Assembly (NCBI GenBank): GCA_964539855.1
Contig: CAZIJR010000001.1
Coordinates: 1-40,116 of the forward strand
From: an uncultured Candidatus Saccharibacteria bacterium
GTDB taxonomy: Bacteria > Patescibacteriota > Minisyncoccia > Minisyncoccales > Staskawiczbacteraceae
DNA length: 40,116 bases
Direction of reading: 5' to 3'
Shown here: positions 9,500-27,126 of the stretch, in pieces
Layout of the letters: every line of letters begins with the position of its first letter
How positions within the stretch are numbered: the first letter of the stretch is position 1
Translations under genes and position numbers: made by a program
Notes under the pieces: model-generated
The model's input: the letters and a program-made list of their open reading frames with translations, nothing else
Databases searched by the model: none
Told to the model about the DNA's origin: nothing

Positions 9500-9507
9500 A
9501 ATTTAAA

Positions 9508-11093: not shown

Positions 11094-11132
11094 TCCCGAA
11101 AGCCGGGCTTTCGGGAAGAAGGGCTTTCGGGA
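11094..11132. repeat. REP-like 23-nt palindrome plus an extra half-repeat (right flank)
   Basis: tcccgaaagccgggctttcggga-agaa-gggctttcggga. Confidence 0.85.
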
Positions 11133-11182: not shown

Positions 11183-11191
11183 TGGTATAAT
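11183..11191 (+). promoter_or_regulatory. extended -10 element TGGTATAAT upstream of the T4SS-like cluster
   Basis: TGnTATAAT located 44 nt upstream of the 11236 ATG. Confidence 0.4.
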
Positions 11192-11235
11192 ATAAGAATT
11201 TAAATTAATTTTATTTACAAAATAACAAAACTGCT

Positions 11236-11544
11236 ATGGCTGAAGGCAACCTTACTGGACCAGAAGGAATATTGATGTTGTGTGTGGCTGGAATATTAGA
11301 TGGTATAGGCCTTATCCTTTTTTGCCTCTCTTGGCTAGGAATAGACGACTATGCCATATTAGACGTTTTGGGAATGCTTATAATAGGCGGGTGGATGTTT
11401 TTTAGGGGTGGCGGACTAAACGAAAAAATTATCAAAAGAGGCCTAAGAAGGTTTGGAATAGCCACCGTTGTAGAACTAGTACCATTTTTAGGCGGCATTG
11501 CCCCCTCTTGGACCATACTCGTCTGGAAAGAGCTTAAAGATTAG
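11236..11544 (+). CDS. small integral membrane protein (3 predicted TM segments), first gene of the T4SS-like cluster
   Basis: 102 aa with hydrophobic segments ILMLCVAGILDGIGLILFCL, VLGMLIIGGWMFF and VELVPFLGGIAPSWTILVW. No family recognised. Confidence 0.6.
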   Translation: MAEGNLTGPEGILMLCVAGILDGIGLILFCLSWLGIDDYAILDVLGMLIIGGWMFFRGGGLNEKIIKRGLRRFGIATVVELVPFLGGIAPSWTILVWKELKD

Positions 11545-11556
11545 CTTTATAAAAGT

Positions 11557-13503
11557 ATGTTAAATTATTTTTTAAAAATCCTCAAAAACAAAAAAATACT
11601 ATTTTTTGTCTTTTTGTCTATTGTCATTTTTTGTTTTGGTTTTTTTTCAACATCAATTCAAAAAGTGCATGCAGTTAGTGGAGGTGATCCATCGCAGTAT
11701 GATGCTTGCGAGCGAGGCTGTCATACAAATTATACGGGGGATGAACTGGACGATTGCATTTCGGCTTGTATGTGGGAACTTGGGCACCAAACAGACAGTT
11801 TTACAAAAATATTGGGAGAGGAGTTGGCGCGAGAGTATGGAAAAATGGCCGAGGTGATGGCTGTTCCATTTGCTACTTTTGTTTTTGCGATAGGGGCCGT
11901 TATTATCAGTATAGGAGGATCGCTTTCTGTACTAGCTTCTACTATTTTGGTAACAGTGCTTGGTATGCTTGACAGTGTAGGTTGTTATACATGTATGACT
12001 AATACTGCTGTGGCAGCGGGTTGGCCCATGGTTAGAGACTTGGCCAACATGTTTGTAGTACTGGGGTTTGTGGTTATAGGATTAGCTACTATATTAAGAT
12101 TTAGAGAATATGAGGCAAAAAAACTTCTACCAAAACTAATAATAGTTGCTCTTTTGATAAATTTTTCACTCCCCATTTGCGGTATATTTATTGACGCTTC
12201 AAATATAACTGCAAAATATTTTTTAAAAAGCGGAGGGTTTTTTGCAAACAGTTGGGGGCAAACATTGGACGGCCAATTAAAGATACTCTTTAACGCCTGG
12301 AAAATTGACGATTACATTAAGGCCTCTATACAATTATTAGGTTCAATAGGGGGTATAACATTTTATAATATAATGGCTATGGTAATTTTTTTACTTTATG
12401 CCTTTTTGTATATTTTTAGAATTATTGCTCTTTGGATATTAGTTATTTTATCTCCGTTGGCCTTTGTTTTTTATGTTTTTCCGTTTACAAAAAAGTTTTT
12501 TGATATGTGGTGGAGCAACTTTTTGGGATGGTGTATTATTATTGTTCCTATATCCTTTTTTGTTTGGATAGCTGATAAAATAATGGCGGGTATAGTCCTC
12601 ACAAGTACAACCCCCGGCGAACCCCCGAGCTTTTTCAGTTATTTAATCCCTGGGTCATTTATGATAATCGGATTTCTTTTTTCAATACGAATGTCAGCGA
12701 TGGGAGCGAGCGCTGCGGTTGGGGCGGCAAAATGGACTGGCGGCAAAATCACCGGCGCCACTGGAGGAACTCTAAAAGGATTAGCTAATACAAGAGCTGG
12801 ACAAAAAATTAGCAGGGGAGCTGTGCTGGCAGGTGAAAAAATGGGTCTTGTTGCGCCAGGCACAACCAACTTGATGAAGCAAAAACATATGAAAGAACAC
12901 GAAAGCGAAAAGAGGGTTTCCACCCTGCCAGACGACCAAGTGATGAAAGGCGGATTTACGGGCAGAACACCTATAAGCAAGAGGGGGAGGAACGACAAAT
13001 TTGAATTTATAAAACAATCTGTTGAAAGTGGCAAAGCAGGAGAATGGCTGAACAAGGGTGAAATTACCCAAGATCAGTATGATAAAGGAGTAGCATACTA
13101 CAAATCACACGGTGGTCCAATAGGCGCGCTGGCTGAAAAAGATTACCGCGTAGCGGGACACGGAGCAGCTAATCCAACAATTGCCCAAACAAAAAAAAAT
13201 GTACAATTTTCAGAAAATCTTTCAAAAGGTATGTCTGGCAAACAGCTTAGGGGCATAAGCGCAGATGATATGGATAGAGCGCTTAATCCTGATATGCACG
13301 ATATAATTAAAGAACAGTTCACTCCAAATACCGCGAAACAATTTAAAACTTCTGATCCAACATTAAAAACTGCTTTGAGAACCCACCTTGGGGCAGTTGG
13401 CACGGCCGGAACGCTGGCAAACGACATTCATATAGCAACCGATCCGAAAGAAAAGGCTAAGCTCCAAAAAGTATATGATGCACTAGACAAAGCAACTATT
13501 TAA
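11557..13503 (+). CDS. VirB6/TrbL-like polytopic membrane protein with a roughly 250-aa soluble C-terminal extension
   Basis: Signal/anchor segment plus a 4-Cys segment, then about 7-8 TM helices. ILSPLAFVFYVFPFTKKFFDMWWSNFLGWCIII resembles the conserved TrbL/VirB6 core (xPlxxxxxxFxxTxxxFxxW). Confidence 0.55.
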   Translation: MLNYFLKILKNKKILFFVFLSIVIFCFGFFSTSIQKVHAVSGGDPSQYDACERGCHTNYTGDELDDCISACMWELGHQTDSFTKILGEELAREYGKMAEVMAVPFATFVFAIGAVIISIGGSLSVLASTILVTVLGMLDSVGCYTCMTNTAVAAGWPMVRDLANMFVVLGFVVIGLATILRFREYEAKKLLPKLIIVALLINFSLPICGIFIDASNITAKYFLKSGGFFANSWGQTLDGQLKILFNAWKIDDYIKASIQLLGSIGGITFYNIMAMVIFLLYAFLYIFRIIALWILVILSPLAFVFYVFPFTKKFFDMWWSNFLGWCIIIVPISFFVWIADKIMAGIVLTSTTPGEPPSFFSYLIPGSFMIIGFLFSIRMSAMGASAAVGAAKWTGGKITGATGGTLKGLANTRAGQKISRGAVLAGEKMGLVAPGTTNLMKQKHMKEHESEKRVSTLPDDQVMKGGFTGRTPISKRGRNDKFEFIKQSVESGKAGEWLNKGEITQDQYDKGVAYYKSHGGPIGALAEKDYRVAGHGAANPTIAQTKKNVQFSENLSKGMSGKQLRGISADDMDRALNPDMHDIIKEQFTPNTAKQFKTSDPTLKTALRTHLGAVGTAGTLANDIHIATDPKEKAKLQKVYDALDKATI

Positions 13504-13519
13504 AAATAATTACAAACCC

Positions 13520-14113
13520 ATGGAAGAACAAAAAAATAACATCCGCGTTCTTTTATCAGATAAGGCAGAACTTATTCTTGGCGAAATACTAAAGAATTTT
13601 GGTTTGGAAGATAAAAATGTTATTGTGGACCGCATTATAAAAAACTTTGCGCGGGAAAACCTATCTGAGAATAGCCTAGTTAACTCTCTGCAAAAGGACT
13701 TGGAAGTCACCCAGCAAATGGCCACTGATGTTGCAAAAGAACTTATAAGCAAAGTTATGCCGTTATTAGAAAAATATCCGGAAGAAAAATTTAGCGACCC
13801 TGTTTTTAGAGAGCAGGTTTCAGAAAAACTTTTTGGTCCTGAAAAAAAGGAAAATAAAACCAAACCAGAAGACATTTTTTCTAAAATAAAAACGCCGATA
13901 GGCGTGGAAAATGCCTTGCAGAAAAAACAATCAAATCCTCCTGAAGCAAAGACTATAGAATCTCCGCAAGACGAAAAGATTGTTGCTCCTGCGCCAAAAA
14001 GAAAATCGCGATTGCCACGTAAGCCAGCTACTAAAACTACTAAAGAATCCGTGTCAGAACAACCCAAAAAACAAAACAGTGGGCCAGACAAATATAGGGA
14101 ACCCATAGGATAA
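13520..14113 (+). CDS. hypothetical protein with a K/E/P-rich, probably disordered C-terminal half
   Basis: 197-aa ORF. The overlapping antisense ORF 13510..14148 is S/F-rich shadow and runs through the terminator hairpin. Confidence 0.6.
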   Translation: MEEQKNNIRVLLSDKAELILGEILKNFGLEDKNVIVDRIIKNFARENLSENSLVNSLQKDLEVTQQMATDVAKELISKVMPLLEKYPEEKFSDPVFREQVSEKLFGPEKKENKTKPEDIFSKIKTPIGVENALQKKQSNPPEAKTIESPQDEKIVAPAPKRKSRLPRKPATKTTKESVSEQPKKQNSGPDKYREPIG

Positions 14114-14130
14114 TAATTTTTTGTAAATAA

Positions 14131-14166
14131 AGAGGGGAGTGGTCTCATGTGAGACCACTCCCCTTT
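14131..14166. terminator. long bidirectional terminator hairpin between convergent genes
   Basis: agaGGGGAGTGGTCTCa-tg-tGAGACCACTCCCCttt: a stem of about 15-17 bp (the two innermost pairs close a 2-nt turn and probably stay open), with T-rich runs on both strands. Confidence 0.8.
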
Positions 14167-14186
14167 ATTTTGCCATCCTCGATGGC

Positions 14187-15347
14187 CTATTTGCCCTGCT
14201 TAAAAGCAGCGAGAACATCTTTGCCCAAGCCTGTCGAAGCGCCAATCACCTCTATTACAGACTTATTAACCTTACCGCGCTCCGTCTGAACCAGCCGAAT
14301 CGCTTCCTCAATCGACATTTCCTTGTGACGTTCACGTAGCTCAGCAATTCGGTCAGAGACGTTTTTTAGTTCGGTAATGTCAGCTTCTTGCTCATTCCGC
14401 TCTTTTTCTGCCTTGTCAGCGGCCTCTGCAACAGAGCCTCCCACCATCAGTTCGTTAACAGTAAACTGATGTATGGTAATCCCTAAGGACGGATGTCCAA
14501 AATTGGCCGTACCTTCTCGCAGATTTTTGATGTCTTGCCTCCTTTTCTCAATTTGTTTTTCCAGCTCCTCTTTTTCAGCATCAGAGTAAGCATTAAAAAT
14601 GGCCATTAATCCATCCCAGTTTGCTTTGCCGTCGGGGTCCTTAGAAACCCATTCTGAGTGCTTAATATCATAAACAGCAGGCTCCGACTGTGGTTTGTCA
14701 AAAAACCGCATCCATGTGCTCGTGGGAATCGGGCTTCTTTTTCCCTTAACCGTAACATCTGGCAAAACAGTCCCCAAAAGCGCCTTTGCCAACACTGCGT
14801 GGGCGCTATCCCGCAAGCTCTGAGCCTCTTCCCAATTTGCAGGCCCTTCTTTGTTGGAGCTGGCCCAGGTTTTGATTCGGTCTTCAATCACGTTGCGCAT
14901 GATTTTTTTGACTCCCACTTCTCCGCCACAGTTCAAATACATAAGATATGAACTTGGCTCCTCGGCAATCCCAGGCGTCCATGTAACACTAGATGTCATT
15001 GTGACAAGCGCTCGATCTGGTGTCCTGACTTCTTGCCGAGGAATCTCATCGCTTACTTTCTCAGTTTTGATGAGAATAAAGTCAAAAACAAAGGGACGAA
15101 GTGGAAAAAAATTCCATCCTTCTTTCAGGACAACTTCTTGCCTTCTCCCTAAAAATGTCAACAAGCCTTTGTGAATCGGGTCTGCGGGAATTTTATTAAG
15201 GCCGTTGACCACAAACAAGGCTCCAAGCGAAATTGCCATGGCCAACATTAGCCATAAACTGCCCGCGCTGAAAAAGCTTGAAACCAACACAATCACTATC
15301 AAAACCAGCTCTGTACAAAGAATTCTCATAGTGCACCATCCTTTCAA
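14187..15347 (-). CDS. SPFH/band 7 (prohibitin/flotillin-like) domain membrane protein; the probable true start is the ATG at 15329
   Basis: N-terminal TM segments, then IPADPIHKGLLTFLGRRQEVVLKEGWNFFPLRPF...EVRTPDRALVTMTSSVTW, the SPFH pattern, and a coiled-coil C-terminus. The track ORF begins with TTG at 15347. The ATG at 15329 has AAAGGA 9 nt upstream. Confidence 0.7.
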   Translation of the reverse strand: MKGWCTMRILCTELVLIVIVLVSSFFSAGSLWLMLAMAISLGALFVVNGLNKIPADPIHKGLLTFLGRRQEVVLKEGWNFFPLRPFVFDFILIKTEKVSDEIPRQEVRTPDRALVTMTSSVTWTPGIAEEPSSYLMYLNCGGEVGVKKIMRNVIEDRIKTWASSNKEGPANWEEAQSLRDSAHAVLAKALLGTVLPDVTVKGKRSPIPTSTWMRFFDKPQSEPAVYDIKHSEWVSKDPDGKANWDGLMAIFNAYSDAEKEELEKQIEKRRQDIKNLREGTANFGHPSLGITIHQFTVNELMVGGSVAEAADKAEKERNEQEADITELKNVSDRIAELRERHKEMSIEEAIRLVQTERGKVNKSVIEVIGASTGLGKDVLAAFKQGK

Positions 15348-15474
15348 ATTAGAAAACGGTTAGTTAATGGCCCGGAATGAGCCATATTTGGCAATGTGCC
15401 CTATTATTAATCATATCATATTTTAAGACATATGTCAAGATGTTAAAAACTCTTGTTTTTCTGTATTTTTATAC

Positions 15475-15484
15475 GTGCTATAAT
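15475..15484 (+). promoter_or_regulatory. extended -10 promoter element GTGCTATAAT for the virB3/virB4-like operon
   Basis: Third copy of the identical 10-mer, 21 nt upstream of the 15506 ATG. Confidence 0.5.
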
Positions 15485-15505
15485 AAATGAATTTAATATC
15501 AAAAC

Positions 15506-15913
15506 ATGGAAAGATATCCTATACCACAGTTTATTGAACAAGAAGGAAAAATTGCTTTCTTTATTTCCTTCAGACAATTTTTTTACCTTGTTGGGGCAGG
15601 AGTGGTTTGTTTTCTATTATATTACGTTTTGCCGTTTTTCCTTTTTGTTGTCATAAGCATTGCAATTTTTGGAGGAGCTGTTGCTTTGGCTTTTGTGACT
15701 ATAAATGGAGTCCCCGTACTAAATATGATTTTGGGTTCTATAGGTTTTGCAGTGGGAGGTAAAAATTACACATGGAAAAAGAAAGAATCTCCTTATCCTT
15801 TCAAACCTATATCCAGAACTAAAATAAAAAAATTAGATCAAGGTCCTGTTTTACAAGCGCAGAAAAGCCAGCTGAGAAAAATGCAAACAAAAGTTGAAAC
15901 ACAAGAAAAATAA
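15506..15913 (+). CDS. PrgI-family / VirB3-like small membrane protein
   Basis: N-terminal ...IPQFIEQEGKIAFFISFRQFFYLVGAGVV... followed by two TM helices, located immediately upstream of the VirB4 homolog as in Gram-positive T4SS loci. Confidence 0.55.
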   Translation: MERYPIPQFIEQEGKIAFFISFRQFFYLVGAGVVCFLLYYVLPFFLFVVISIAIFGGAVALAFVTINGVPVLNMILGSIGFAVGGKNYTWKKKESPYPFKPISRTKIKKLDQGPVLQAQKSQLRKMQTKVETQEK

Positions 15914-15916
15914 ATT

Positions 15917-16594
15917 ATGGCCGAATCCGCAACACAACAATTTTTGGAAATACAAGATATAAGAGAGGGGGTTTTGTTGCTAAAAAATAACCAGATAAGG
16001 GGAGTTTTGATGGTCTCTTCTATAAATTTTGCTTTAAAATCAGAGGATGAACAAACTGCCATTATTTATGCTTTCCAAAGCTTTTTAAACTCTTTAGATT
16101 TTTCATGCCAGATTGTAATCCAATCCAGAAATATAAATATAACTCCGTACCTGGACAGCTTAAAAGATTTGGAGGAAAGGCAGCCTAATGAATTACTAAG
16201 AGAACAAACCAAATCTTACCGCGAGTTTATAAAAAATATGGTAGTAGGGGATACTGTTATGACCAAAAACTTTTATGTGGTAGTGCCTTACAACTTGATG
16301 GAAGTTTTTGGAATGAAGGGCGCTGGAAAACAATTTAATTTTTTAAAACAATTTTCAGGAGGACAAAACGGACCCGGAGGCACTCCACAGCCCATGAAGG
16401 ATGATGATTTTCAAAGATGTAAAACCCAGCTTTGGCAAAGAATGGAATATCTGGCCATGGGGTTACGAAGGTGCGGGCTAGAAGCAATGCCTTTGACCAC
16501 CCCCGAGCTTATAGAACTTTTTTGGGCAATACATCATCCCGAGCAAGCAGAAGTGGGATACTACCCAGAAATTTTACCCGAACTATTAAAATAA
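15917..16594 (+). CDS. VirB4 N-terminal region (CagE/TrbE/VirB-like) encoded as a separate ORF
   Basis: QQFLEIQDIREGVLLLKNNQIRGVLMVSSINFALKSEDEQTAIIYAFQSFLNSLDFSCQIVIQS follows the pattern at the start of Gram-positive VirB4 homologs. The ORF is in the same frame as the next ORF, separated by TAA ACT. Confidence 0.5.
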   Translation: MAESATQQFLEIQDIREGVLLLKNNQIRGVLMVSSINFALKSEDEQTAIIYAFQSFLNSLDFSCQIVIQSRNINITPYLDSLKDLEERQPNELLREQTKSYREFIKNMVVGDTVMTKNFYVVVPYNLMEVFGMKGAGKQFNFLKQFSGGQNGPGGTPQPMKDDDFQRCKTQLWQRMEYLAMGLRRCGLEAMPLTTPELIELFWAIHHPEQAEVGYYPEILPELLK

Positions 16595-16597
16595 ACT

Positions 16598-18409: not shown

Positions 18410-18425
18410 TTGCTTTAGGCAAAGA

Positions 18426-21400
18426 ATGCTAAAAAAAACAAAAATAAAAACTTTTTTGCAGCTGGCTGTTGTTAGCTTGTTTTTGACTACCGCAAAATTC
18501 GCGCATGCTCTTGAAGCAAGTTATCCTACAATATTTGGCCTGTCTTTGGGCGACAGCCCTTCGCTTCCCGAATATGCAAAATACTTTTTTAATATTGGCA
18601 TAATCTCAGCGGGAATTTTGGCCGCTCTAGTAATTGCGTTTGGCGGAATTTATTATTTAGTAGATTTTGGCAGGGGAAAGTTCAAAAGCGAAGGAATGGA
18701 GTGGATAAAAGCTGGCACGCTCGGACTTTTGCTTATAATGTGTGCCTACTTAATTGTTTACACTATAAACCCCTACTTGGTTATTTTTGATTTGAAAGGA
18801 CTGGCCCCTCTTGCCTTTCTTTCCAATTTATTTAGCTCTCCGTCATCTTCTCTGCCAGTTGAAGTTTATACAGAAATACCCATAGGAATATTGACTGAAA
18901 ACCTTTTAACCCGAACTATGGACTGCTATAATTTTGACGGCAATGGCGACCCTATTGAAGGAGAGCCCCTAACCGTAGACGATGGTAGAAAATTATACGG
19001 CCCCACCTATTTAAAACACGACCAGGCAGACTGCTTCTTAAAGCTGGCTGAGGCTATTGAAAAAAAGTCAGACATAGCCAACCAATTATCAATAAAAATT
19101 GCCGAGTTAATGCAACAATGCCAATGTTCTGAAGGCACTTGCGATACGCAATGGAACTCTAAATGCCCGGAAAAGCCACCTTGCAACAAGGCCAAAGGTA
19201 TATGCAAGCCCATTTTAGATGAAAGTTGCTGTCCTGCTGACGTAAAAAAACAAATTGAGGAGGGCCTCATAACTCTTGACCAAAATGAGGGAGGGACTTC
19301 CTGCCCGGGCTCTGAGAAAAAATATACGGGCCTAGAAGAATTTAGGTCAAAACAATTTGGTAGTAACTATTTTGCTATAAAAACTTTTGTAGAGATTCAA
19401 CCTCCAGCGAAAGTAAACGGTAAAGATATCTGGATAATAAATAACGGGAATTGCCAAGTCTGCATTTATAATTGCCCGGCAACATGCACGGAAGGTGATA
19501 ACCAGTGTTTAAATAAAAAACAAAACTGTGAAGAGCAACAATCAGAATGCCTAGTAGGAAGACAAAAATGCCTACAAAAAAACAGCCCTTGGTATAAATT
19601 AAAACTTATAGACCAGCTCACATATCTTAGAGGACGAGCCGAAGAAATAAAACAAAAAGTTCAGCAAGACATAAATAATTTAACAAGCGCTGAAGACTTA
19701 TTGGGAAAATGTTACTTGGCAGACGCTTATGTAGATTTTTTTAAGGTGTACGAAAAAACCGATAAAAAAGAAAAAACTATCCTTGTTCAAAAAACCTTTT
19801 CGGACCCGGAAACTCAAAAAATTGTTAATCCTGCCAAGTATTGCGAAGGTTTCCAATATAATAATTCAAGCTGTTATAGTCAATGTCAAAAAGTTTGTCC
19901 TGGTACGAGCAGTCAAGAAGTTGGTTATTACAAAAAAGCTCAGAGTTGCAATAATATAGCTCTAAAAGAAAGACAAAAGTGTCTGGAGCAACAGGCAAAA
20001 TATATAAAAGAAATTTATGACAATCGCTCGTGCATTGCAGGCGCTAGCCCTTTCAAAACTTTTCCCGAGTGTATGGATAACTGTAACCAAAATTGCTTGA
20101 GTTCTTGTGAAAAATCCTGCCTAAGCGCCGAAGAACTAAAAAAATGCCAGGATAAATGCAACAATGATTCAAAATGCCTGCTGGACAATGAAGACAAATG
20201 CCTAATAAACTTTAACAGGCTAAAAGATTGCTCTGATTCCACAGCCTGTGTTGCAGGATGCAGTGGCGATAATGACTGCATACAAAAATGTAATGTCCAA
20301 TATAATGACATTAATTTTGTAAAAAATTGCATAGAAAATTCTGCCTCACTTTGCACTTATTGTTCAGACCAGTATGCTGGTTATCCTGAATGCCTAACGC
20401 CTTCATATTATAATCAGGGCAACTATTCTTCCTCTTTTTTGTGTAGTGATCCTAATTCCCAGCTCTGCAAATATGGAATTACAACAACAGATGTAAATGG
20501 AAATACAGTTAGCCAAACCGCTGATAGTTGCACGGTTCAAAACCTGGAAACTTCAAAATGTCCAGTAAACTCTAAATGCCCAGAATGCCCGTGCGACATC
20601 GTCAGCGACCAGCCTACAGAAAACAGTTATGCTGGTCAAACAGAAGAACCAACGGGCACAGATTGCTCTGATGCAAATAAAAACAACGGAGAAGACACAG
20701 CATACAGGGTGTGCAGCCCGACTTGTGACAACTACGCTTTTAATGATGACCCATTAACCTTTTACTGTAATCAAACCTGGTGGAAAAAAGATGAAACAAA
20801 AAATACAGAACCTCTTGGAAGTTCAAAAATCTGCCCTAAAAATAAAGAAATACCTGTAGGCAGGACCGTGGACGATGCAGAAGCCTGGGGACAAGCATTT
20901 ATGCAAGTCATAAATGATTTTACCCAAAAAGCAGACGAAATGATAAATTATATTAAAAAAATTGGGGATGAAAAAAAATACTGTCAGTGCGACAGCACTT
21001 GCGGAGGGTCAGAACTTGTTTGCAAACCAGAATGCGAAGACTTTACAGTTTTTGATGAAGATAACAAAAAAATTGGGGAAGGTTGTGCTCAAAGTCCATG
21101 TTCGGGAAATCCTTGCCAAAAAATGATCAATCTTCTTTTAGGAAAAGAGGCGGGAAATGAATTTACAGACAACGACCCAGATGCTTGTCCAGCAGGACAA
21201 AATAGCGGATTTGAAGGCGTAAATTGGTATTTAGAACAAGTAAAAGATGGACTTAAAGAAGTAGAAGATTTTGTGCTAAAAGACAAAAGATCAGACATAT
21301 TAAAGGAACTTGAATATTCACGACAAGGCATAAATACTTGCAGTACAAACTATGACAAAGAAACAAGTATTTTAAGCTGTACAAGAGTGGAAGATGAAAT

Positions 21401-21551
21401 TATGCCACCCTTGATAGCAACTTCAAACCCGGCTAAAACAATTGTTGGCACAAATAAACCTGTAGCTTCATATTGCTACGGACAAGAGTTGGGAAAAATA
21501 TTAGGCACAGAACCTTTGGCCGACAATTGGTTTTGCTGTCAAACAAAATAA
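18426..21551 (+). CDS. giant cysteine-rich surface protein with an N-terminal VirB2-like (pilin-type) membrane hairpin
   Basis: Signal peptide (..FAHA|LEASYP), LPEYAKYFF, and two TM helices ending in YTINPYL. About 900 aa follow, holding nearly all of the protein's about 72 Cys by my hand count (CxC and CxxxC clusters). Confidence 0.7.
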   Translation: MLKKTKIKTFLQLAVVSLFLTTAKFAHALEASYPTIFGLSLGDSPSLPEYAKYFFNIGIISAGILAALVIAFGGIYYLVDFGRGKFKSEGMEWIKAGTLGLLLIMCAYLIVYTINPYLVIFDLKGLAPLAFLSNLFSSPSSSLPVEVYTEIPIGILTENLLTRTMDCYNFDGNGDPIEGEPLTVDDGRKLYGPTYLKHDQADCFLKLAEAIEKKSDIANQLSIKIAELMQQCQCSEGTCDTQWNSKCPEKPPCNKAKGICKPILDESCCPADVKKQIEEGLITLDQNEGGTSCPGSEKKYTGLEEFRSKQFGSNYFAIKTFVEIQPPAKVNGKDIWIINNGNCQVCIYNCPATCTEGDNQCLNKKQNCEEQQSECLVGRQKCLQKNSPWYKLKLIDQLTYLRGRAEEIKQKVQQDINNLTSAEDLLGKCYLADAYVDFFKVYEKTDKKEKTILVQKTFSDPETQKIVNPAKYCEGFQYNNSSCYSQCQKVCPGTSSQEVGYYKKAQSCNNIALKERQKCLEQQAKYIKEIYDNRSCIAGASPFKTFPECMDNCNQNCLSSCEKSCLSAEELKKCQDKCNNDSKCLLDNEDKCLINFNRLKDCSDSTACVAGCSGDNDCIQKCNVQYNDINFVKNCIENSASLCTYCSDQYAGYPECLTPSYYNQGNYSSSFLCSDPNSQLCKYGITTTDVNGNTVSQTADSCTVQNLETSKCPVNSKCPECPCDIVSDQPTENSYAGQTEEPTGTDCSDANKNNGEDTAYRVCSPTCDNYAFNDDPLTFYCNQTWWKKDETKNTEPLGSSKICPKNKEIPVGRTVDDAEAWGQAFMQVINDFTQKADEMINYIKKIGDEKKYCQCDSTCGGSELVCKPECEDFTVFDEDNKKIGEGCAQSPCSGNPCQKMINLLLGKEAGNEFTDNDPDACPAGQNSGFEGVNWYLEQVKDGLKEVEDFVLKDKRSDILKELEYSRQGINTCSTNYDKETSILSCTRVEDEIMPPLIATSNPAKTIVGTNKPVASYCYGQELGKILGTEPLADNWFCCQTK

Positions 21552-21568
21552 AATTATATTTGTAAAAT

Positions 21569-23017
21569 ATGTTCAAAAAATTTAAGCGCGTAATAATATC
21601 CCTTATAATTATTTTATTCTTTTTTGGTGCTCACTCCGCGCTTGCGCTTGAAAGAAAATATCCTTCACTTCCCATGATAGGAAGTCCAGAAAATTGCACT
21701 GGAAGCGGGTGTTTGCCTTTGTTTGTTTCATATTGGTTTACATTAGCCATTATTGCGGCTTGTATTTTAGCGCTTATCTCTTTTACGGTTGGAGCTATTG
21801 GGCTAATAAACCCGAATCCAGACTCTCACAATAATGCCAAAGATAGAATGAAGGGCTCTATTTTGGGGCTGGTTCTGTGCCTTTCAGCCTTAATATTATT
21901 ACAAACTATAAACCCAAATATCGTGGGCCTGCAACTGACCCCTTTGCCAGGCGCTCCTGGGATTTATTATGCCAAGGGGAGTGAACTGACAGCTGTCGCT
22001 TTTTCTGTGAATGATTTTACCAACTCCCAGGCGCGCCAAGACGGCTACAACGCAATAAAATACAAGTGTAGCGCAGAAGGCGGAGGAACAGGACCCAATC
22101 TTTTGATTTGGAAATTCCCCAATCCCGGACTCGAAGGAAATAACGACTTAAACAGTGTCACTATGGCGGTAAAAAGTTGTGGTCAATCAGAACCACTTGG
22201 AGGCGTAGGATCATTTAAAATGGCCTTTGAAGCTCCTGGCGTATATTATTATGCCAACACAGGATGTTCTGGCTATATGTCTTATGCAAACACCTCAACC
22301 CAAAATTCAATATCAGCTCCTTTTATAGGTGTGATAAAATCAGTAAAAATTGTTAACGACCCGGAAAACAATGATTATTACGGTGCTATTTTTCACGGAG
22401 TACCGGATGCCTCAAAGGGCAGCGATTGCACCAACCCAATTTTCACTGCCGACGGCGGTTGTAAAAATTTATCTGACTATTTGCTTTCTCCTAATTTTGG
22501 TGCATTTTCCGCCAACATCTTTAAATGGGCGAAAAACAAATCTTCCTCATCGGGAGATGGAGTTTGGTTTTACAGCGACAGCAACGGCTGGGACAGCGGA
22601 AACAAATCTGGGGTATTTTATATAAATTCACAAAATATTGGTACCTACGCATCCCAAAAAGCCGCGGATTTAAAGTTTAATTATGCGGGGGTTGATAGCG
22701 CCCAAGCCATAACCTGTACTTCTTATCCTTCGTGCAGGGATATTGATTGGGAAAATAATGAGTATCCAGATTGTTGTGGATGCTCTTCGCCAAAAGATTG
22801 GAGCGCTGGAGAGGGCAACAAGTGTGCAGGATCTATAAAGTTTGGGGGGAACGGATATTTAGTAAGTCTTTATATTACTTATAGCGATATAGACGGCAAT
22901 GACAGATTGTTTTGCCAAACCTTTGAAAAAGATACTCCCAACCTAAGCACGGCATGGTCTGCTTCTCCTGGAGGCGCAGAATTAGACCACATTGATATAA
23001 TTCCAATAGTTCAATAA
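21569..23017 (+). CDS. pilin-hairpin fusion protein, paralog 1
   Basis: Signal peptide (ALA|LERKYPSLP), a two-TM hairpin ending QTINPNI, PLPG, then about 360 aa extracellular. C-terminus ...HIDIIPIVQ. Confidence 0.7.
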   Translation: MFKKFKRVIISLIIILFFFGAHSALALERKYPSLPMIGSPENCTGSGCLPLFVSYWFTLAIIAACILALISFTVGAIGLINPNPDSHNNAKDRMKGSILGLVLCLSALILLQTINPNIVGLQLTPLPGAPGIYYAKGSELTAVAFSVNDFTNSQARQDGYNAIKYKCSAEGGGTGPNLLIWKFPNPGLEGNNDLNSVTMAVKSCGQSEPLGGVGSFKMAFEAPGVYYYANTGCSGYMSYANTSTQNSISAPFIGVIKSVKIVNDPENNDYYGAIFHGVPDASKGSDCTNPIFTADGGCKNLSDYLLSPNFGAFSANIFKWAKNKSSSSGDGVWFYSDSNGWDSGNKSGVFYINSQNIGTYASQKAADLKFNYAGVDSAQAITCTSYPSCRDIDWENNEYPDCCGCSSPKDWSAGEGNKCAGSIKFGGNGYLVSLYITYSDIDGNDRLFCQTFEKDTPNLSTAWSASPGGAELDHIDIIPIVQ

Positions 23018-23034
23018 TAAAACCACTTATAAAA

Positions 23035-24372
23035 GTGCATAAAAACTATTATAAACATTTTGCTTTTCTGTATACTACCGTTTTGCTGTTTTTTTTGAAC
23101 AGTTCCTTTGCTTTTGCGCTTGAAACAACTTACCCTTCTTTGCCTGGATTTCCGGCAGTTACAGATAAAAGCAATCTACCAGAGTATGTTGCCTATTTTT
23201 TTGGATTGGCAATAGCAGTAGCTGCAATTTTAGCCGTTATCTTTTTAGCAATAGGTGGGCTACGATTAATAACGTCTATAAGCAGTCCTTCTGCCCATAC
23301 TGACGCGTGGAATACGATAAAGGGCGCTATCTTAGGGTTATTATTATTAATGGCTGCTTTCTTAATTTTGCGAACAATAAATCCTGATTTTATAGAGCCC
23401 GTTTTAACTCCTTTGCCTGATGTTGATGGAATTTTTTACTATGATGGAACCAATAAACTGCCCTCCCCTATGTCAGAATCAAATACGCGCAATGTGCCCG
23501 AAGGGTATGACCGGTTAATTTATGTATGTAGTTCTGGTCCATCTTTGTTTGTATGGAAGTTTCCTGAAACAAATTTTCAAGGGATTGATGGCGCCTACAC
23601 ACAAGCTATAAACTGCGGAGATTCTATTAATATTACAGATGCCAGATCTTTTAATTTAGCGTTTGAGTCCACGGGTATTTATTATTGTATGGGAGGTTGC
23701 AGTGAAACAGGGACAATATGCTCTGGGCTTATGTCTAAAACAAACACATCAAGTGGACAAATATCCGAGCCTTTTAAAAACAATGTGAAATCGGTACTGT
23801 TTGTAAACGATCCTACACAAGCTCTACAATATGGCGCTGTTTTCCATTTTTTTGATGACCCAAAGCAATCAGGTCCATGCTCTTTTATTTATAACCTAAC
23901 GAGCACAGACAAAAAAAGAAGTTGTTTTAATATGGGGAGTAGTCCTTCCTCGTCAGTTAGTGTTTTTGCTTGGAACTATAAAACCCCTGAAACATCTGGA
24001 GCGGGGGCAAACTTTTATAGTGAACCATGGGGGAATGCCGTAGGCGCCCGCGCTGGAAATTATTTTCTCAGTAGTGGCAACATAAAAAATTATTTTCATA
24101 TTCCTACTAATAAAATAATTTTTAATTATTCTGGTATTAATAGGCCCACCAACTATATCAGCCTTTACCAAAGTTTTTTGCAACGCCCAGGGTCAATTTA
24201 TTTAGAAGGAAATTACCTTTTTGTTCTAAACAATCTCATCTCTACCAACGATCATGGAGAAAAATTGTTTGTTTGCCAAATTTTTTATAGTGATATTTTT
24301 AATATAAAAGAAACTGAGTTTTTTGCAAAAGAAAATAAAATTGAAAACATTGAAATACTGCCGATAAAATAA
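23035..24372 (+). CDS. pilin-hairpin fusion protein, paralog 2 (GTG start)
   Basis: FAFA|LETTYPSLPG, LPEYVAYFF, RTINPDF, PLP. It shares WKFP, AFExxGxYY, KSVxxVNDP and YGAxFH with the preceding gene. C-terminus ...NIEILPIK. Confidence 0.7.
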   Translation: MHKNYYKHFAFLYTTVLLFFLNSSFAFALETTYPSLPGFPAVTDKSNLPEYVAYFFGLAIAVAAILAVIFLAIGGLRLITSISSPSAHTDAWNTIKGAILGLLLLMAAFLILRTINPDFIEPVLTPLPDVDGIFYYDGTNKLPSPMSESNTRNVPEGYDRLIYVCSSGPSLFVWKFPETNFQGIDGAYTQAINCGDSINITDARSFNLAFESTGIYYCMGGCSETGTICSGLMSKTNTSSGQISEPFKNNVKSVLFVNDPTQALQYGAVFHFFDDPKQSGPCSFIYNLTSTDKKRSCFNMGSSPSSSVSVFAWNYKTPETSGAGANFYSEPWGNAVGARAGNYFLSSGNIKNYFHIPTNKIIFNYSGINRPTNYISLYQSFLQRPGSIYLEGNYLFVLNNLISTNDHGEKLFVCQIFYSDIFNIKETEFFAKENKIENIEILPIK

Positions 24373-24374
24373 TT

Positions 24375-25562
24375 ATGCCAAAAAATCATACAATATCTTT
24401 TATAATTTTATTCTTTATTATATCAGCCGGGTTTTTTTTCCTGCCTCAAAATAAAGTTTTTTCCGCCGACTTACAACTTGAAGTTGCGTATCCTGTTTTG
24501 GGAACAGGAGCAAAAATAACAGCACAGTCAGATTTAACCGAATATCTAAAATATGTTTTTGACTTTGGAATAATGATAGGATTTTTCTTTGTTTTTCTTT
24601 CTTTGGCCTGGGCCGGAGCTCTTTATTTTTTATCTCCGGCAATTCCGGGAGCATTAAATGACGTAAAAGACAGGATTTCGGGCGCTATAACAGGAATGGT
24701 TATTTTAGTACTTTTGTATTTAATTATTGTAACAATAAACCCATACCTGGCTATTTTTAAGCTTGGCGAGATAGAACCCGTACCACTGCCAGAGCCTAAT
24801 ACTTCTTACCCGGGGGTTACTTTATATGAATCTGAAAATTGTTCTGGCACTTCAAACACTTACACCAACAACGTATCTGATTTGGGAAGCTTAAACAATA
24901 AGGTGCAGTCTGTAGGCATTTCACAAAACCCAGAGGAAAAGCTTTATTATATAGCTGTTTTATATGATATAAACGGTAATTGGGGAAAATGCCAATATAT
25001 AAACCCAAACAACCCTTGCGCGCCAAAAATAGATCCATTTGCCGCATCAGCTTCCATTTACCAATATGATTTTTATCCAAAAGGTGATGGCATTTACTTA
25101 TACCGCAAACCGTTTGATCAAATCCCAGGGAAAGAAGAAAATAAAAAAGGGGGATATTTAAAAATCACTAATTCCCAGATTGGTAAAGGAACTTTGCTAT
25201 ATCTTCCTAATCTGCGCTTTACGGGCATGTCTTCTAATTATAATAATTTAAGAGATTGCTCTGTTCCTGAAGAAGAGCAAGATTGCGCGAAATACGACGA
25301 AAAAGGAAAGTGTACACAAAAAGAATGTCCTAAATTATCAGAAAAAAACATATCCTCAATATATATATCAGGAGATTATCTAGTTTTGCTTGTATATTTT
25401 GCACCCGGCGACAATCCACAAGGGCCTTGGACTTATTGCCAGGCCTATGCCTCTAACAATGACGTGAACAAAGAAGGGCCGGAGCAAATAAAATGGGATG
25501 CTGTAAGGAATCAGGGGAAAGACCCGAATTGGATAGCTATTATTCCAATAAAAGAAAAATAA
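24375..25562 (+). CDS. pilin-hairpin fusion protein, paralog 3 (more divergent)
   Basis: LEVAYPVL, LTEYLKYVF, VTINPYL, PLPEP. VQSVGISQNPEEKLYYIAVLYD aligns with the KSVKIVNDPENNDYYGAIFH motif of paralog 1. C-terminus ...WIAIIPIKEK. Confidence 0.7.
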   Translation: MPKNHTISFIILFFIISAGFFFLPQNKVFSADLQLEVAYPVLGTGAKITAQSDLTEYLKYVFDFGIMIGFFFVFLSLAWAGALYFLSPAIPGALNDVKDRISGAITGMVILVLLYLIIVTINPYLAIFKLGEIEPVPLPEPNTSYPGVTLYESENCSGTSNTYTNNVSDLGSLNNKVQSVGISQNPEEKLYYIAVLYDINGNWGKCQYINPNNPCAPKIDPFAASASIYQYDFYPKGDGIYLYRKPFDQIPGKEENKKGGYLKITNSQIGKGTLLYLPNLRFTGMSSNYNNLRDCSVPEEEQDCAKYDEKGKCTQKECPKLSEKNISSIYISGDYLVLLVYFAPGDNPQGPWTYCQAYASNNDVNKEGPEQIKWDAVRNQGKDPNWIAIIPIKEK

Positions 25563-25571
25563 ACTTAAAAC

Positions 25572-25596
25572 AAAAACGGCTATACCAGCCGTTTTT
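25572..25596. terminator. bidirectional intrinsic terminator
   Basis: aaaaaCGGCT-atacc-AGCCGttttt between the convergent genes ending at 25562 (+) and 25600 (-). Confidence 0.75.
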
Positions 25597-25599
25597 GTT

Positions 25600-27114: not shown

Positions 27115-27126
27115 AGATCTTTAGGG

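What the first reader, a model, noticed from the sequence alone, without database searches (positions are those of the whole stretch)
11183..25596. Stripped-down type IV secretion-like locus dominated by VirB2-like modules, with no recognisable DNA-transfer genes
About 14 kb of co-oriented genes sit between a promoter-like TGGTATAAT and a terminator hairpin. They encode a 3-TM miniprotein, a VirB6/TrbL-like channel protein with a long soluble tail, a disordered K/E/P-rich protein and a PrgI/VirB3-like protein. These are followed by a VirB4 ATPase and four consecutive proteins whose N-termini are signal peptide plus two-TM 'pilin' hairpins. A fifth, stand-alone pilin-type gene sits at 3331..3714. 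By eye I see no VirD4-type coupling ATPase, relaxase, VirB11 or VirB8/9/10-like genes in the window. This looks like a VirB4-powered surface-filament or adhesion machine rather than a conjugation system. In an organism with this gene content it is a candidate cell-cell attachment or exchange apparatus. The LysM/M23 hydrolase at 8289..9419 could supply wall remodelling, but that link is speculative.
Basis: partly seen in the sequence, partly recalled or inferred. Interest (0 to 1): 0.8.

Follow-up and report, generated by a model that had tools for sequence, protein, structure and literature searches.

The report
Patescibacteria chromosomal type IV secretion locus

Summary
The gene calls are largely right. 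Profile searches support a VirB6/TrbL-like protein, a PrgI/VirB3-like protein, a CD1110-type VirB4 ATPase, four proteins with N-terminal T4SS-pilin hairpins, and a fifth small pilin at 3331-3714. No coupling protein, relaxase, VirB11 or VirB8/9/10 was found in the window.

Two points are wrong or missed. The genes are not all co-oriented: an SPFH/Band-7 gene (14187-15347) lies on the minus strand with its own promoter-like site and a terminator hairpin. The 225-aa gene at 15917-16594 is a TrsD-like, detached VirB4 N-domain.

The window is from a Candidatus Staskawiczbacteria (Paceibacteria) metagenome contig. The locus lies between ksgA and jag-yidC-rnpA|dnaA-dnaN. The same gene order recurs in dozens of related genomes.

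This is the "Patescibacteria T4SS" surveyed in 2,417 genomes by Quinonero-Coronel et al. 2025 and shown essential for epibiotic growth in a Saccharibacterium by Wang et al. 2023. Its function is still unknown.

Three details go beyond those papers' text. The hairpins carry 270-916-aa ectodomains (weakly betagamma-crystallin-like, or a Cys-rich fold with no known match). Relatives fuse the hairpin to M23 or SLT hydrolase domains. The ATPase is as conserved as DnaA, whereas the envelope parts are far more variable.

Verdict: new member of a known kind, moderate-to-low interest.

The parts
11183..11191 (+). Extended -10-like promoter motif TGGTATAAT upstream of the first plus-strand unit
   Evidence: Read directly from the sequence. 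There is no -35 element at canonical spacing, and function was not tested.
11236..11544 (+). 102-aa membrane miniprotein (~3 TM), a conserved accessory of unknown role
   Evidence: Hydrophobic segments. No Pfam or NCBIfam hit. Homologues occur in 32 loci, usually directly downstream of virB4; here and in L012 the gene sits upstream of virB6.
11557..13503 (+). VirB6/TrbL-like polytopic membrane protein with a ~250-aa hydrophilic C-terminal tail
   Evidence: Pfam TrbL E 1.7e-5, 25.1 bits (cutoff 25.9), profile positions 2-209 of 215. Precomputed TrbL_3 annotation. At least 6 hydrophobic segments. Homologues of its TM region occur in 48 loci, mostly upstream of PrgI/VirB4.
13520..14113 (+). 197-aa soluble protein: ~95-aa helical N-domain plus a K/E/P-rich tail; conserved partner of VirB6, function unknown
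   Evidence: No TM segment; tail composition K19 E12 P13 in 102 residues. Family found in 40 loci immediately after virB6. No Pfam hit. The longer antisense ORF 13510-14148 is not conserved.
14133..14164 (.). Bidirectional terminator-like hairpin (14-bp stem, 9 GC pairs) between convergent genes
14187..15347 (-). SPFH/Band-7 (stomatin/flotillin-like) membrane protein on the opposite strand. Start is uncertain: TTG 15347, ATG 15329 or ATG 15239.
   Evidence: Pfam Band_7 36.3 bits, above the cutoff of 23.6. Five of six minus-strand genes tested at this position in relatives are also Band_7. Present between virB6/KEP and prgI in 18 of 44 loci, always on the minus strand.
15410..15438 (-). Best sigma-70-like match in the region (TTGACA-17-TATGAT with TG); candidate promoter of the SPFH gene
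   Evidence: 11 of 12 positions match.
15477..15485 (+). Second extended -10-like motif TGCTATAAT, 20 nt upstream of prgI
   Evidence: Read from the sequence.
15506..15913 (+). PrgI/VirB3-like two-TM protein
   Evidence: Pfam PrgI 31.5 bits, above the cutoff of 27. Found in 70 loci just upstream of TrsD-VirB4.
15917..16594 (+). TrsD-like protein, a detached VirB4 N-terminal domain
   Evidence: NCBIfam: VirB4_plasma positions 106-233 (E 1e-9), TrsD (E 1.5e-6), CD1110 VirB4 positions 2-118 (E 2e-5), all below cutoff. The next gene matches positions 160-733 of the same CD1110 model. Precomputed Pfam annotation is TraC-like. Found in 78 loci.
16598..18409 (+). VirB4-type ATPase (CD1110 / MPF-FATA type)
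   Evidence: NCBIfam conju_CD1110 356.8 bits, above the cutoff of 325. Pfam P-loop_TraG 89 bits. PDB 4ag5 5e-43. Walker A at residue 257 and Walker B at 465. More than 120 homologues at 84-90% identity.
18426..21551 (+). 1041-aa protein: signal peptide plus T4SS-pilin hairpin plus a 916-aa Cys-rich (72 Cys) ectodomain with no fold match in the PDB or viral libraries
   Evidence: Hairpin HMM E 1.5e-36. Alignment. AF2 pLDDT 79.8, pTM 0.75. Foldseek against PDB and BFVD found nothing below E=1. Many homologues carry an M23 domain inserted near residue 285 that is absent here.
21569..23017 (+). 482-aa hairpin protein with an all-beta ectodomain (paralogue 1)
   Evidence: Pfam T4SS_pilin 31.1 bits, above the cutoff of 26.6. 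Paralogy with the next two genes.
23035..24372 (+). 445-aa hairpin protein with an all-beta ectodomain (paralogue 2; modelled)
   Evidence: Pfam T4SS_pilin 28.0 bits. AF2 pLDDT 87.4: helices 48-83 and 85-115, then beta domain 132-443. Foldseek gives only weak betagamma-crystallin hits (best E 4.5e-3).
24375..25562 (+). 395-aa hairpin protein with an all-beta ectodomain (paralogue 3)
   Evidence: Hairpin HMM E 2.3e-33. Weak Pfam Crystall hit, E 0.0085. Shares the C-terminal CQ...I.IIPIK motif.
25566..25602 (.). Terminator-like hairpin between the last gene and convergent jag
3331..3714 (+). Stand-alone 127-aa T4SS-type pilin; candidate shaft subunit
   Evidence: Pfam T4SS_pilin 34.1 bits, above the cutoff of 26.6; TrbC/VirB2 E 9e-4. 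Flanked by tRNA-Arg and tRNA-Lys, next to rpsO. The link to the locus is inferred only.
8289..9419 (-). LysM x2 + M23 peptidase; possible VirB1-type wall remodeller (association uncertain)
   Evidence: Pfam LysM and Peptidase_M23. Syntenic two genes upstream of virB6 in most Paceibacteria loci. Its orthologues in relatives (L033, L034, L039) are the only hits recovered by jackhmmer from pCF10 PrgK.

Best explanation
[quoted passage not shown] It derives from the monoderm (MPF-FATA) conjugation machinery but is no longer a DNA-transfer element.

Shown here:
- The locus has a VirB6-like channel protein and a PrgI/VirB3-like anchor.
- Its VirB4 ATPase is split into a TrsD-like N-domain and a 603-aa motor with intact Walker motifs.
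- Five proteins carry a signal peptide followed by a VirB2-type helical hairpin.
- The locus comprises at least two plus-strand units (11236-14113 and 15506-25562), separated by an antisense SPFH gene.

Inferred mechanism:
- The hairpin proteins are inserted by Sec/YidC and cleaved after AxA.
- They sit with both ends outside the membrane.
- The VirB4/TrsD motor, docked on PrgI and VirB6, extracts or assembles them into a surface appendage.
- The small 127-aa pilin would form any shaft.
- The four large hairpin proteins would be minor, tip or base subunits that display fast-evolving ectodomains. In relatives these ectodomains include M23 or SLT wall hydrolases. They would bind or breach the host envelope.
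- The apparatus then serves host attachment and exchange or uptake of macromolecules, in a direction that is unknown.
For: - Family assignments.
- Chromosomal core context next to dnaA/dnaN.
- Organism: the nearest VirB4s (84-90% identity) are Candidatus Staskawiczbacteria.
- Conserved order ksgA-VirB6-KEP-(SPFH)-PrgI-TrsD-VirB4-(mini3TM)-hairpin proteins-jag-yidC-rnpA|dnaA across Paceibacteria loci.
- Gaps of 2-17 nt between genes within each unit.
- No coupling protein or relaxase in the window or in up to 10 kb either side of virB4 in 80 related genome loci.
- In 14 close relatives the motor is as conserved as DnaA (VirB4 85%, TrsD 81%, DnaA 83% median identity). VirB6 (30%), KEP (34%) and the hairpin proteins (35-43%) diverge more than typical housekeeping genes (52-68%).
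- The hairpin is N-terminal in 119 neighbouring ORFs of 133-2095 aa, some fused to Peptidase_M23 or SLT.
- Literature: the same system was surveyed in 2,417 of 3,035 Patescibacteria genomes, with TrsD, PrgI, VirB6 and VirB2 arrays, no relaxase, and a position near dnaA/dnaN/rnpA/ksgA (PMC12102498). It is essential for epibiotic growth of Southlakia epibionticum (PMC10633639). Tubular structures 'that may be T4SS pili' were seen at a parasite-host interface in a cultivated relative (bioRxiv 10.64898/2026.06.21.733656).
Against: - No direct evidence for a filament, for VirB4-dependent extraction of the hairpin proteins, or for any substrate.
- Ectodomains of 270-916 aa on each hairpin are sterically awkward for a canonical VirB2 helical shaft.
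- No VirB8-like scaffold and no hydrolase lie inside the operons of this genome.
- The TrbL hit is marginally below Pfam's cutoff, and the TrsD hits are below NCBIfam cutoffs.
- A coupling protein could be encoded elsewhere in the genome. The contig is only 41 kb, and the published survey finds distal T4CP homologues in many Patescibacteria.
- The function is called 'completely unknown' even in the genetically tractable relative.
Confidence: 0.7

Rival explanations
1. The hairpin is only a membrane anchor. The four large proteins are ordinary surface-anchored adhesins or wall-active proteins that never polymerise. The VirB4/VirB6/PrgI core is a pilus-less translocon, as in Gram-positive T4SSs, that exports or imports something else.
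For: - Ectodomains are large: the hairpin proteins of related loci range from 133 to 2095 aa, median about 450.
- Relatives fuse the hairpin to M23 and SLT hydrolases, like membrane-anchored PrgK/VirB1 analogues.
- The 1041-aa gene occupies the position that prgK holds after prgJ in pCF10.
- Some proteins carry 4-6 covalently linked hairpins, which do not fit a classical filament subunit.
Against: - The hairpin matches Pfam T4SS_pilin, and weakly TrbC/VirB2.
- The hairpin genes keep a strict operon position after virB4.
- A small stand-alone pilin exists in the window.
- Pilin arrays are essential in Southlakia.
- Tubular structures were reported in a cultivated relative.
Confidence: 0.25
2. 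The locus is a nucleic-acid import machine, analogous to H. pylori ComB or the archaeal Ced system, that feeds a nucleotide-auxotrophic parasite.
For: - Import precedents and this proposal appear in the literature. An RNA-feeding model links the system to tubular structures.
- PNPase lies 4.7 kb upstream in a conserved block.
- The VirB4 has weak similarity to CedB (E 2e-13, far below cutoff).
Against: - The CedB and CedD hits are generic P-loop similarity, far below cutoff.
- No DNA- or RNA-binding component was recognised inside the locus.
- ComEA-like and PilB-type genes for conventional competence are present elsewhere in the window.
Confidence: 0.2
3. The locus is an ordinary conjugative element, or a remnant of one, whose coupling protein and relaxase lie outside the window.
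For: - The VirB4 belongs to the conjugative CD1110 family.
- T4CP homologues exist at distal sites in many Patescibacteria genomes.
- A RAYT-like Y1 transposase lies next to the locus.
Against: - The locus is fixed between ksgA and the oriC gene block in dozens of genomes from several candidate orders.
- No integrase, relaxase or T4CP lies within up to 10 kb of virB4 in 80 related genome loci.
- VirB4 evolves as slowly as DnaA and tracks taxonomy.
- GC content is not distinct from the flanks.
Confidence: 0.05

Closest known systems
Patescibacteria-clade T4SS (Quinonero-Coronel et al. 2025, PMC12102498; Southlakia epibionticum SEML1_0006-0019, Wang et al. 2023, PMC10633639)
   Same: - MPF-FATA-type VirB4 preceded by TrsD and PrgI, with a VirB6 homologue and an array of divergent PF18895 pilin-type genes.
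- No relaxase, and no coupling protein nearby.
- Position next to dnaA/dnaN/rnpA/ksgA, as reported for Paceibacteria.
- Staskawiczbacteria genomes are in that paper's dataset.
   Different: - Here every pilin-type gene in the array encodes a 395-1041-aa protein in which the hairpin is only the N-terminal 125 residues.
- An antisense SPFH gene, a conserved 3-TM miniprotein and a K/E/P-tailed VirB6 partner are part of the locus.
- None of these is mentioned in the text of that paper.
- No peptidase or lysozyme gene follows virB4, unlike in Southlakia.
Gram-positive conjugative T4SS of the MPF-FATA class (pCF10 Prg/Pcf; CTn2 CD1110 type; pGO1 Trs with TrsD+TrsE)
   Same: - VirB4 scores above the CD1110 equivalog cutoff.
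- PrgI and a VirB6-like protein are present.
- The order PrgI-VirB4-large envelope protein mirrors prgI-prgJ-prgK.
- A separate TrsD-like N-domain occurs, as in pGO1.
- There are no outer-membrane components.
   Different: - No PcfC/VirD4 coupling protein, relaxase, PrgL/VirB8-like protein or PrgB-type adhesin.
- The locus is chromosomal and not mobile.
- VirB2-type hairpins are present, which Gram-positive systems are said to lack.
VirB2/TraA/TrbC conjugative pilins of Gram-negative T4SSs
   Same: - Signal peptide followed by two hydrophobic helices joined by a short loop.
- Pfam T4SS_pilin match, and a weak TrbC match for the 127-aa protein.
   Different: - Canonical pilins are about 70-120 aa with no appended domain.
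- Four of the five here carry 270-916-aa ectodomains.
- No VirB5 tip protein and no TraX- or TraF-type maturation genes.
Mycoplasma ICE T4SS (Mbov_0395 pilin-like protein; Mbov_0397 VirB4)
   Same: - The TrsD-like protein's best NCBIfam hit is the N-terminal region of the Mbov_0397-type VirB4 (E 1e-9).
- The 445-aa protein's hairpin weakly matches the Mbov_0395 'pilin-like conjugal transfer protein' model (E 2e-4).
   Different: - All of these hits are below the curated cutoffs.
- The mycoplasma system is a mobile ICE with DNA-processing genes.

Membership tests
Type IV secretion system (VirB4-defined superfamily) | VirB4-family ATPase with intact nucleotide-binding motifs | tested here: met
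   conju_CD1110 356.8 bits, above the cutoff of 325. PDB 4ag5 5e-43. Walker A AKSGSGKS and Walker B ILVIDE present.
MPF-FATA (monoderm) T4SS class | VirB4 of the FATA type with PrgI/TrsC-type VirB3 and a VirB6 homologue, and no VirB7/9/10 outer-membrane core | tested here: met
   The best VirB4 models are CD1110 and the mycoplasma ICE type. PrgI scores above cutoff; TrbL scores 25.1 against a cutoff of 25.9. No VirB9/10 family hit was found in any window ORF scanned. No VirB4 phylogeny was built here.
Patescibacteria-clade T4SS | VirB4 whose nearest relatives are Patescibacteria; TrsD-like gene adjacent; PF18895 pilin array; no relaxase nearby; in Paceibacteria, close to dnaA/dnaN/rnpA/ksgA | tested here: met
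   Staskawiczbacteria neighbours; TrsD; pilin hairpins; origin genes; no relaxase or T4CP. Criteria are taken from PMC12102498. Clade membership was judged by similarity, not by a tree.
Conjugative element (plasmid or ICE) | Relaxase plus type IV coupling protein (VirD4 or TcpA type) associated with the mating-pair formation genes | tested here: not met
   None was found in the 40-kb window by Pfam or NCBIfam. None was found in 82 loci by jackhmmer from pCF10 PcfC and PcfG. The rest of the genome could not be examined.
Conjugative element (plasmid or ICE) | Mobility signature: integrase or attachment sites, variable insertion site, composition differing from the host | tested here: not met
   The locus has a fixed position between ksgA and the oriC gene block across many genomes. 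GC is 0.35-0.41, like the flanks. The only nearby mobility-type gene is a weak RAYT-like Y1 transposase.
VirB2/T4SS pilin (Pfam PF18895 / PF04956) | Signal peptide plus two-helix hydrophobic hairpin matching the family profile | tested here: met
   PF18895 scores above cutoff for 3331-3714, 21569-23017 and 23035-24372. The other two match a locus-derived hairpin HMM at E 1e-33 to 1e-36 and align throughout. The AF2 model shows the helical hairpin.
VirB2/T4SS pilin (Pfam PF18895 / PF04956) | Polymerises into an extracellular pilus | not testable with these tools
   No multimer prediction or imaging was available. The large ectodomains argue against a role as a major shaft subunit.
TrsD / VirB4 N-terminal domain | Sequence homology to the N-terminal ~150-230 residues of FATA VirB4s, encoded directly upstream of the ATPase | tested here: met
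   NCBIfam hits to N-terminal regions of the VirB4_plasma, TrsD and CD1110 models (E 1e-9 to 2e-5, all below curated cutoffs), complementary to the region matched by the 603-aa ATPase. A PDB profile search was uninformative, with 0 hits.
VirB8-like scaffold (PrgL/TraM/TcpC) | N-terminal TM helix plus an NTF2-like domain, encoded in the locus | tested here: not met
   No Pfam or NCBIfam hit. jackhmmer from PrgL gave only one marginal hit elsewhere. Neither unassigned small protein has that architecture.

The most novel reading that the evidence does not exclude
In Paceibacteria the VirB2-type hairpin may not be a filament subunit. It may instead be a portable N-terminal module that hands diverse ectodomains to the VirB4 machine for surface display or insertion at the host contact site. 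The ectodomains include betagamma-crystallin-like binders, a 900-aa Cys-rich fold with no match in the libraries searched, and M23 and SLT wall hydrolases. The result would be a T4SS-dependent, modular 'pilin-anchored effector/adhesin' system whose hypervariable cargo sets host range. The conserved antisense SPFH protein could organise the membrane microdomain where this happens.
Probability: 0.3. Interest if true: 0.65.

Novelty: new member of a known kind. Interest (0 to 1): 0.35.

Why it matters
Patescibacteria make up a large share of bacterial diversity and live as obligate epibionts. Their T4SS is nearly universal, and it is essential for epibiotic growth in the one species tested, Southlakia epibionticum. 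Its function is nevertheless unknown.

This window adds no new system. It does give a clean Paceibacteria example with three useful features:
- The ATPase motor is as conserved as DnaA.
- The membrane and surface parts evolve much faster than housekeeping genes.
- The "pilins" are really anchors for large ectodomains.

That pattern points to the ectodomains as the host-specific interface. It therefore suggests concrete targets for antibodies, binding assays and cryo-ET labelling in the few cultivated relatives.

Tried and rejected
- hhalign of the locus family alignments (mini3TM, KEP, PrgI, TrsD, VirB6) against single pCF10 proteins was uninformative. Only PrgI against PrgI reached 20% probability, and even TrsD against PrgJ failed, so the negatives carry no weight.
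- PDB sequence searches found nothing for the 225-aa protein alone, for a 38-sequence TrsD profile, or for VirB6.
- Foldseek of the 445-aa model gave only weak betagamma-crystallin matches: best E 4.5e-3, target TM-score about 0.6 for single microbial crystallin domains. I treat the crystallin likeness as a lead, not an assignment.
- Foldseek of the 1041-aa model against PDB and the viral library found nothing below E=1. The BabA and NheA rows are noise.
- The idea that the 1041-aa protein is a PrgK-type hydrolase was rejected for this genome. Homologues have an M23 insert near residue 285, but the window protein runs straight across that site without it.
- VirB11 was rejected for 37733-39082, which is GspE/PilB-type (444 bits against 56).
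- The longer antisense ORF 13510-14148 was rejected in favour of the plus-strand 197-aa gene, because only the latter is conserved.
- Alternative genetic code was considered and dropped. All the genes discussed here read as uninterrupted ORFs under table 11.

Full report
**What is in the sequence**

The window is low-GC (about 0.31-0.41) and reads cleanly in table 11. Between 11236 and 25562 there are eleven real genes, not ten, and one of them is on the minus strand.

Plus-strand unit 1:
- 11236-11544 encodes a 102-aa protein with about 3 TM segments.
- 11557-13503 encodes a VirB6/TrbL-like protein.
- 13520-14113 encodes a 197-aa soluble protein with a K/E/P-rich tail.
- The gaps between these genes are 12 and 16 nt.
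- The unit ends at a strong bidirectional hairpin at 14133-14164.

The minus-strand gene:
- 14187-15347 is an SPFH/Band_7 gene (Pfam 36.3 bits).
- The best promoter-like match in the whole region lies at 15438-15410 on the minus strand.

Plus-strand unit 2 begins after a TGCTATAAT motif at 15477-15485. Its genes, separated by 2-17 nt, are:
- PrgI at 15506-15913.
- A 225-aa gene at 15917-16594.
- VirB4 at 16598-18409.
- Four hairpin proteins at 18426-21551, 21569-23017, 23035-24372 and 24375-25562.

The unit ends at the hairpin at 25566-25602.

**Family assignments**

| Gene | Evidence |
|---|---|
| VirB4 (16598-18409) | Above the curated cutoff of NCBIfam's CD1110 equivalog (356.8 vs 325 bits, model positions 160-733); PDB 4ag5, the Thermoanaerobacter VirB4 C-domain, at 5e-43; Walker A and B present |
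| 225-aa protein (15917-16594) | Matches positions 2-118 of the same CD1110 model, the TrsD family, and the N-terminal region of the mycoplasma-ICE VirB4 model (E 2e-5 to 1e-9, all below cutoff); precomputed annotation is 'TraC-like' |
| PrgI (15506-15913) | Above the Pfam cutoff |
| VirB6-like (11557-13503) | TrbL 0.8 bit below cutoff, but covering the whole profile; precomputed annotation is TrbL_3 |

The 225-aa protein is therefore a detached VirB4 N-domain of the TrsD type.

All four large downstream proteins and the 127-aa protein at 3331-3714 share three features. Each has a signal peptide ending AxA. Each has a conserved 'LE..YP' start to the mature protein. Each has two hydrophobic helices ending in TINP. 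Three of them pass the Pfam T4SS_pilin cutoff. All five match a hairpin HMM built from related loci (E 6e-16 to 1e-39), and no other ORF in the window does.

**What is absent**

Pfam and NCBIfam scans of the window's ORFs found no VirD4/TcpA coupling protein, relaxase, VirB8, VirB9, VirB10 or VirB11. The T2SSE ATPase at 37733-39082 is GspE/PilB-type (444 bits) rather than VirB11 (56 bits).

**Where it comes from**

The VirB4 sequence occurs on a 41-kb JGI metagenome contig (3300028299, Ga0268276_1000602), which holds virtually the whole window. More than 120 cluster representatives are 84-90% identical, and those with names are Candidatus Staskawiczbacteria or Parcubacteria.

The locus lies between ksgA (plus a RAYT-like Y1 transposase) and jag-yidC-rnpA-rpmH | dnaA-dnaN. 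That places it at the chromosomal origin.

**Synteny**

I fetched 80 genome loci around VirB4 relatives at 51-87% identity. I labelled their ORFs by BLAST and by iterated HMM searches seeded with the window's proteins. Staskawiczbacteria, Nealsonbacteria and other Paceibacteria repeat one gene order:

(PNPase - coiled-coil protein - DksA - LysM/M23) - ksgA - VirB6 - KEP - [SPFH, minus strand] - PrgI - TrsD - VirB4 - [mini3TM] - 1 to 4 hairpin proteins - jag yidC rnpA | dnaA dnaN

Details of that order:
- The SPFH gene lies between VirB6/KEP and PrgI in 18 of 44 loci that contain both flanks, always on the minus strand.
- Five of six such minus-strand genes tested are Band_7 by Pfam.
- The miniprotein usually follows virB4. 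Here and in L012 it precedes virB6, and in this window it lies next to the Y1 transposase.
- jackhmmer seeded with pCF10 PcfC (T4CP) and PcfG (relaxase) found nothing in any locus. PrgJ recovered all 84 VirB4s.

**The hairpin proteins**

In the related loci, 119 ORFs carry the hairpin. It is almost always N-terminal, and the proteins are 133-2095 aa long, with a median near 450.

Of 81 of these ORFs scanned against Pfam, 54 hit T4SS_pilin. C-terminal domains were recognised in only a few: Peptidase_M23 (3), SLT (1), LTD (1), Peptidase_C39_2 (1) and Crystall (1).

Many homologues of the 1041-aa protein carry an M23 domain inserted near residue 285. The window protein lacks it.

An exhaustive profile search with the five window hairpins found 32,116 representative proteins at E<=1e-3. 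The best 150 are mostly 400-1400 aa with the hairpin at the N-terminus. Some contain 3-6 tandem hairpins. P0305 is six hairpins in a row. P0242 is four hairpins plus an SLT-like domain.

**Structure predictions**

The 445-aa protein (28-sequence alignment):
- Confidence is pLDDT 87.4.
- The model shows a signal helix, a helical hairpin (48-83 and 85-115) and an all-beta ectodomain (132-443) with pLDDT above 90.
- Foldseek against the PDB found nothing at E<=1e-3.
- The best matches are gamma-crystallin and microbial betagamma-crystallin domains (E 4.5e-3 and weaker).
- This agrees with sub-threshold Pfam Crystall hits.

The 1041-aa protein (46-sequence alignment):
- Confidence is pLDDT 79.8, pTM 0.75.
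- It is a mixed alpha/beta protein with 72 cysteines.
- It has no match below E=1 in the PDB or the viral structure library.

**Evolutionary rates**

Median identity to the window's proteins in 14 close relatives (VirB4 at least 80% identical) is shown below.

| Protein | Median identity (%) |
|---|---|
| VirB4 | 85 |
| DnaA | 83 |
| TrsD | 81 |
| PrgI | 68 |
| YidC | 68 |
| KsgA | 64 |
| RnpA | 52 |
| Miniprotein | 50 |
| Hairpin proteins | 35-43 |
| KEP | 34 |
| VirB6 | 30 |

The motor is under housekeeping-grade constraint. The membrane and surface parts diverge faster than ordinary core genes.

**Comparison with the literature**

Quinonero-Coronel et al. 2025 (PMC12102498):
- They found VirB4 in 2,417 of 3,035 Patescibacteria genomes, almost all in one clade nested in MPF-FATA.
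- TrsD was the most frequent neighbour. PrgI/VirB3 and VirB6 were also common.
- VirB2-like pilins (PF18895/PF04956) occurred in arrays of 2-11 genes with about 25% identity.
- VirB8 was almost never found, and most genomes lacked a relaxase.
- In Paceibacteria and Microgenomatia the locus lies near dnaA, dnaN, rnpA, ksgA and rpmH.
- Staskawiczbacteria genomes are in their dataset.

Wang et al. 2023 (PMC10633639) showed that the homologous cluster, including its pilin series, is essential for epibiotic growth of a Saccharibacterium. They noted that it lacks coupling and relaxase proteins.

Two reviews call the function unknown. They speculate about effector delivery, nucleotide uptake or a pilus conduit.

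A 2026 preprint reports tubular structures 'that may be T4SS pili' at the host interface of a cultivated relative, and proposes host-RNA feeding.

I could not find several points in the text or held supplements of those papers:
- The hairpins are fused to large ectodomains.
- The SPFH gene recurs on the antisense strand.
- The miniprotein and the KEP protein are conserved parts of the locus.
- The motor and the envelope parts evolve at very different rates.

These are refinements, not a new kind of system.

**Mechanism**

Shown:
- The component set.
- The two-unit organisation.
- The fixed chromosomal position.
- The lack of nearby DNA-processing genes.

Inferred from established T4SS biology:
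- VirB3 and VirB6 dock VirB4 at the membrane.
- VirB4 energises pilin extraction and assembly.
- VirB2 has both termini outside the membrane.

On that basis I propose the following model. The hairpin proteins are Sec/YidC-inserted, signal-peptidase-cleaved substrates of the TrsD+VirB4 motor. The small pilin at 3331-3714 would be the shaft subunit, if a shaft exists. The four large proteins would be minor, tip or base subunits that display variable host-binding ectodomains, or wall-active ones in relatives. The SPFH protein may scaffold the membrane patch.

The main rival is that the hairpin is merely an anchor and no filament forms. Import of nucleic acid is a compatible functional variant. 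An ordinary conjugative element is very unlikely.

**Verdict**

This is a new member of a known kind. Interest is 0.35.

Noticed in passing
window 14187-15347 (-); relatives e.g. L006:7570-8724, L033:7246-8667, L043:6959-8239: A divergent SPFH/Band-7 gene lies on the opposite strand inside the T4SS locus, between the VirB6/KEP unit and PrgI. It occurs there in 18 of 44 related loci, always on the minus strand. It is not mentioned in the text or held supplements of the 2025 survey.
   Followed up: partly
window 10365-11093 (+), 11094-11132, 11236-11544: A weak REP-associated-tyrosine-transposase-like (Y1_Tnp) gene overlaps the end of ksgA. It is followed by repeated perfect hairpins (TCCCGAAAGCC/GGCTTTCGGGA). 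The 3-TM miniprotein, which follows virB4 in most relatives, sits right after this element here, which suggests a local rearrangement. L026 has a Y1 homologue inside its T4SS locus.
   Followed up: partly
window 3203-3798: The stand-alone 127-aa pilin gene (3331-3714) is wedged between tRNA-Arg(tcg) on the minus strand and tRNA-Lys(ctt), which starts 11 nt after its stop codon. It lies just upstream of rpsO. This context hints at strong constitutive expression.
   Followed up: no
proteins P0305, P0242, P0273, P0318: Some database proteins consist of 3-6 tandem T4SS-pilin hairpins in one polypeptide. P0305 has six. P0242 has four plus a C-terminal SLT-like lytic transglycosylase. These covalent 'polypilins' are hard to reconcile with a classical pilus subunit.
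   Followed up: partly
window 18426-21551 vs P0157, P0168, P0218: Many orthologues of the 1041-aa Cys-rich hairpin protein carry a ~200-aa insert with a Peptidase_M23 domain near residue 285. The window protein lacks the insert. In Nealsonbacteria (L033:12260-13819) a 519-aa hairpin protein ends in a full M23 domain.
   Followed up: yes
window 23035-24372 and 15917-16594: Two weak NCBIfam hits link this locus to mycoplasma ICE models. The hairpin matches the Mbov_0395 'pilin-like conjugal transfer protein' (E 2e-4). The TrsD-like protein matches the N-terminal region of the Mbov_0397 VirB4 (E 1e-9). This hints that pilin-like hairpins exist within the monoderm MPF-FATA class, which the 2025 survey describes as lacking VirB2-like pilins.
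   Followed up: no
window 4748-11093 and related loci: The block PNPase - coiled-coil protein - DksA/TraR zinc finger - LysM/M23 - ksgA precedes the T4SS locus in many Paceibacteria. PNPase next to the T4SS is notable given a 2026 preprint proposing host-RNA feeding. It may equally be plain conservation of origin-proximal gene order.
   Followed up: no
window 34133-35068 (-) and 37733-39082 (-): A ComEA-type helix-hairpin-helix protein fused to a lamin-tail domain and a GspE/PilB-type ATPase show that a separate type IV pilus or competence apparatus is encoded nearby.
   Followed up: partly
window 25600-30213: The window contains the chromosomal origin block: jag, yidC, rnpA and rpmH on the minus strand, then dnaA and dnaN on the plus strand, with AT-rich spacers (GC about 0.31-0.32).
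   Followed up: no
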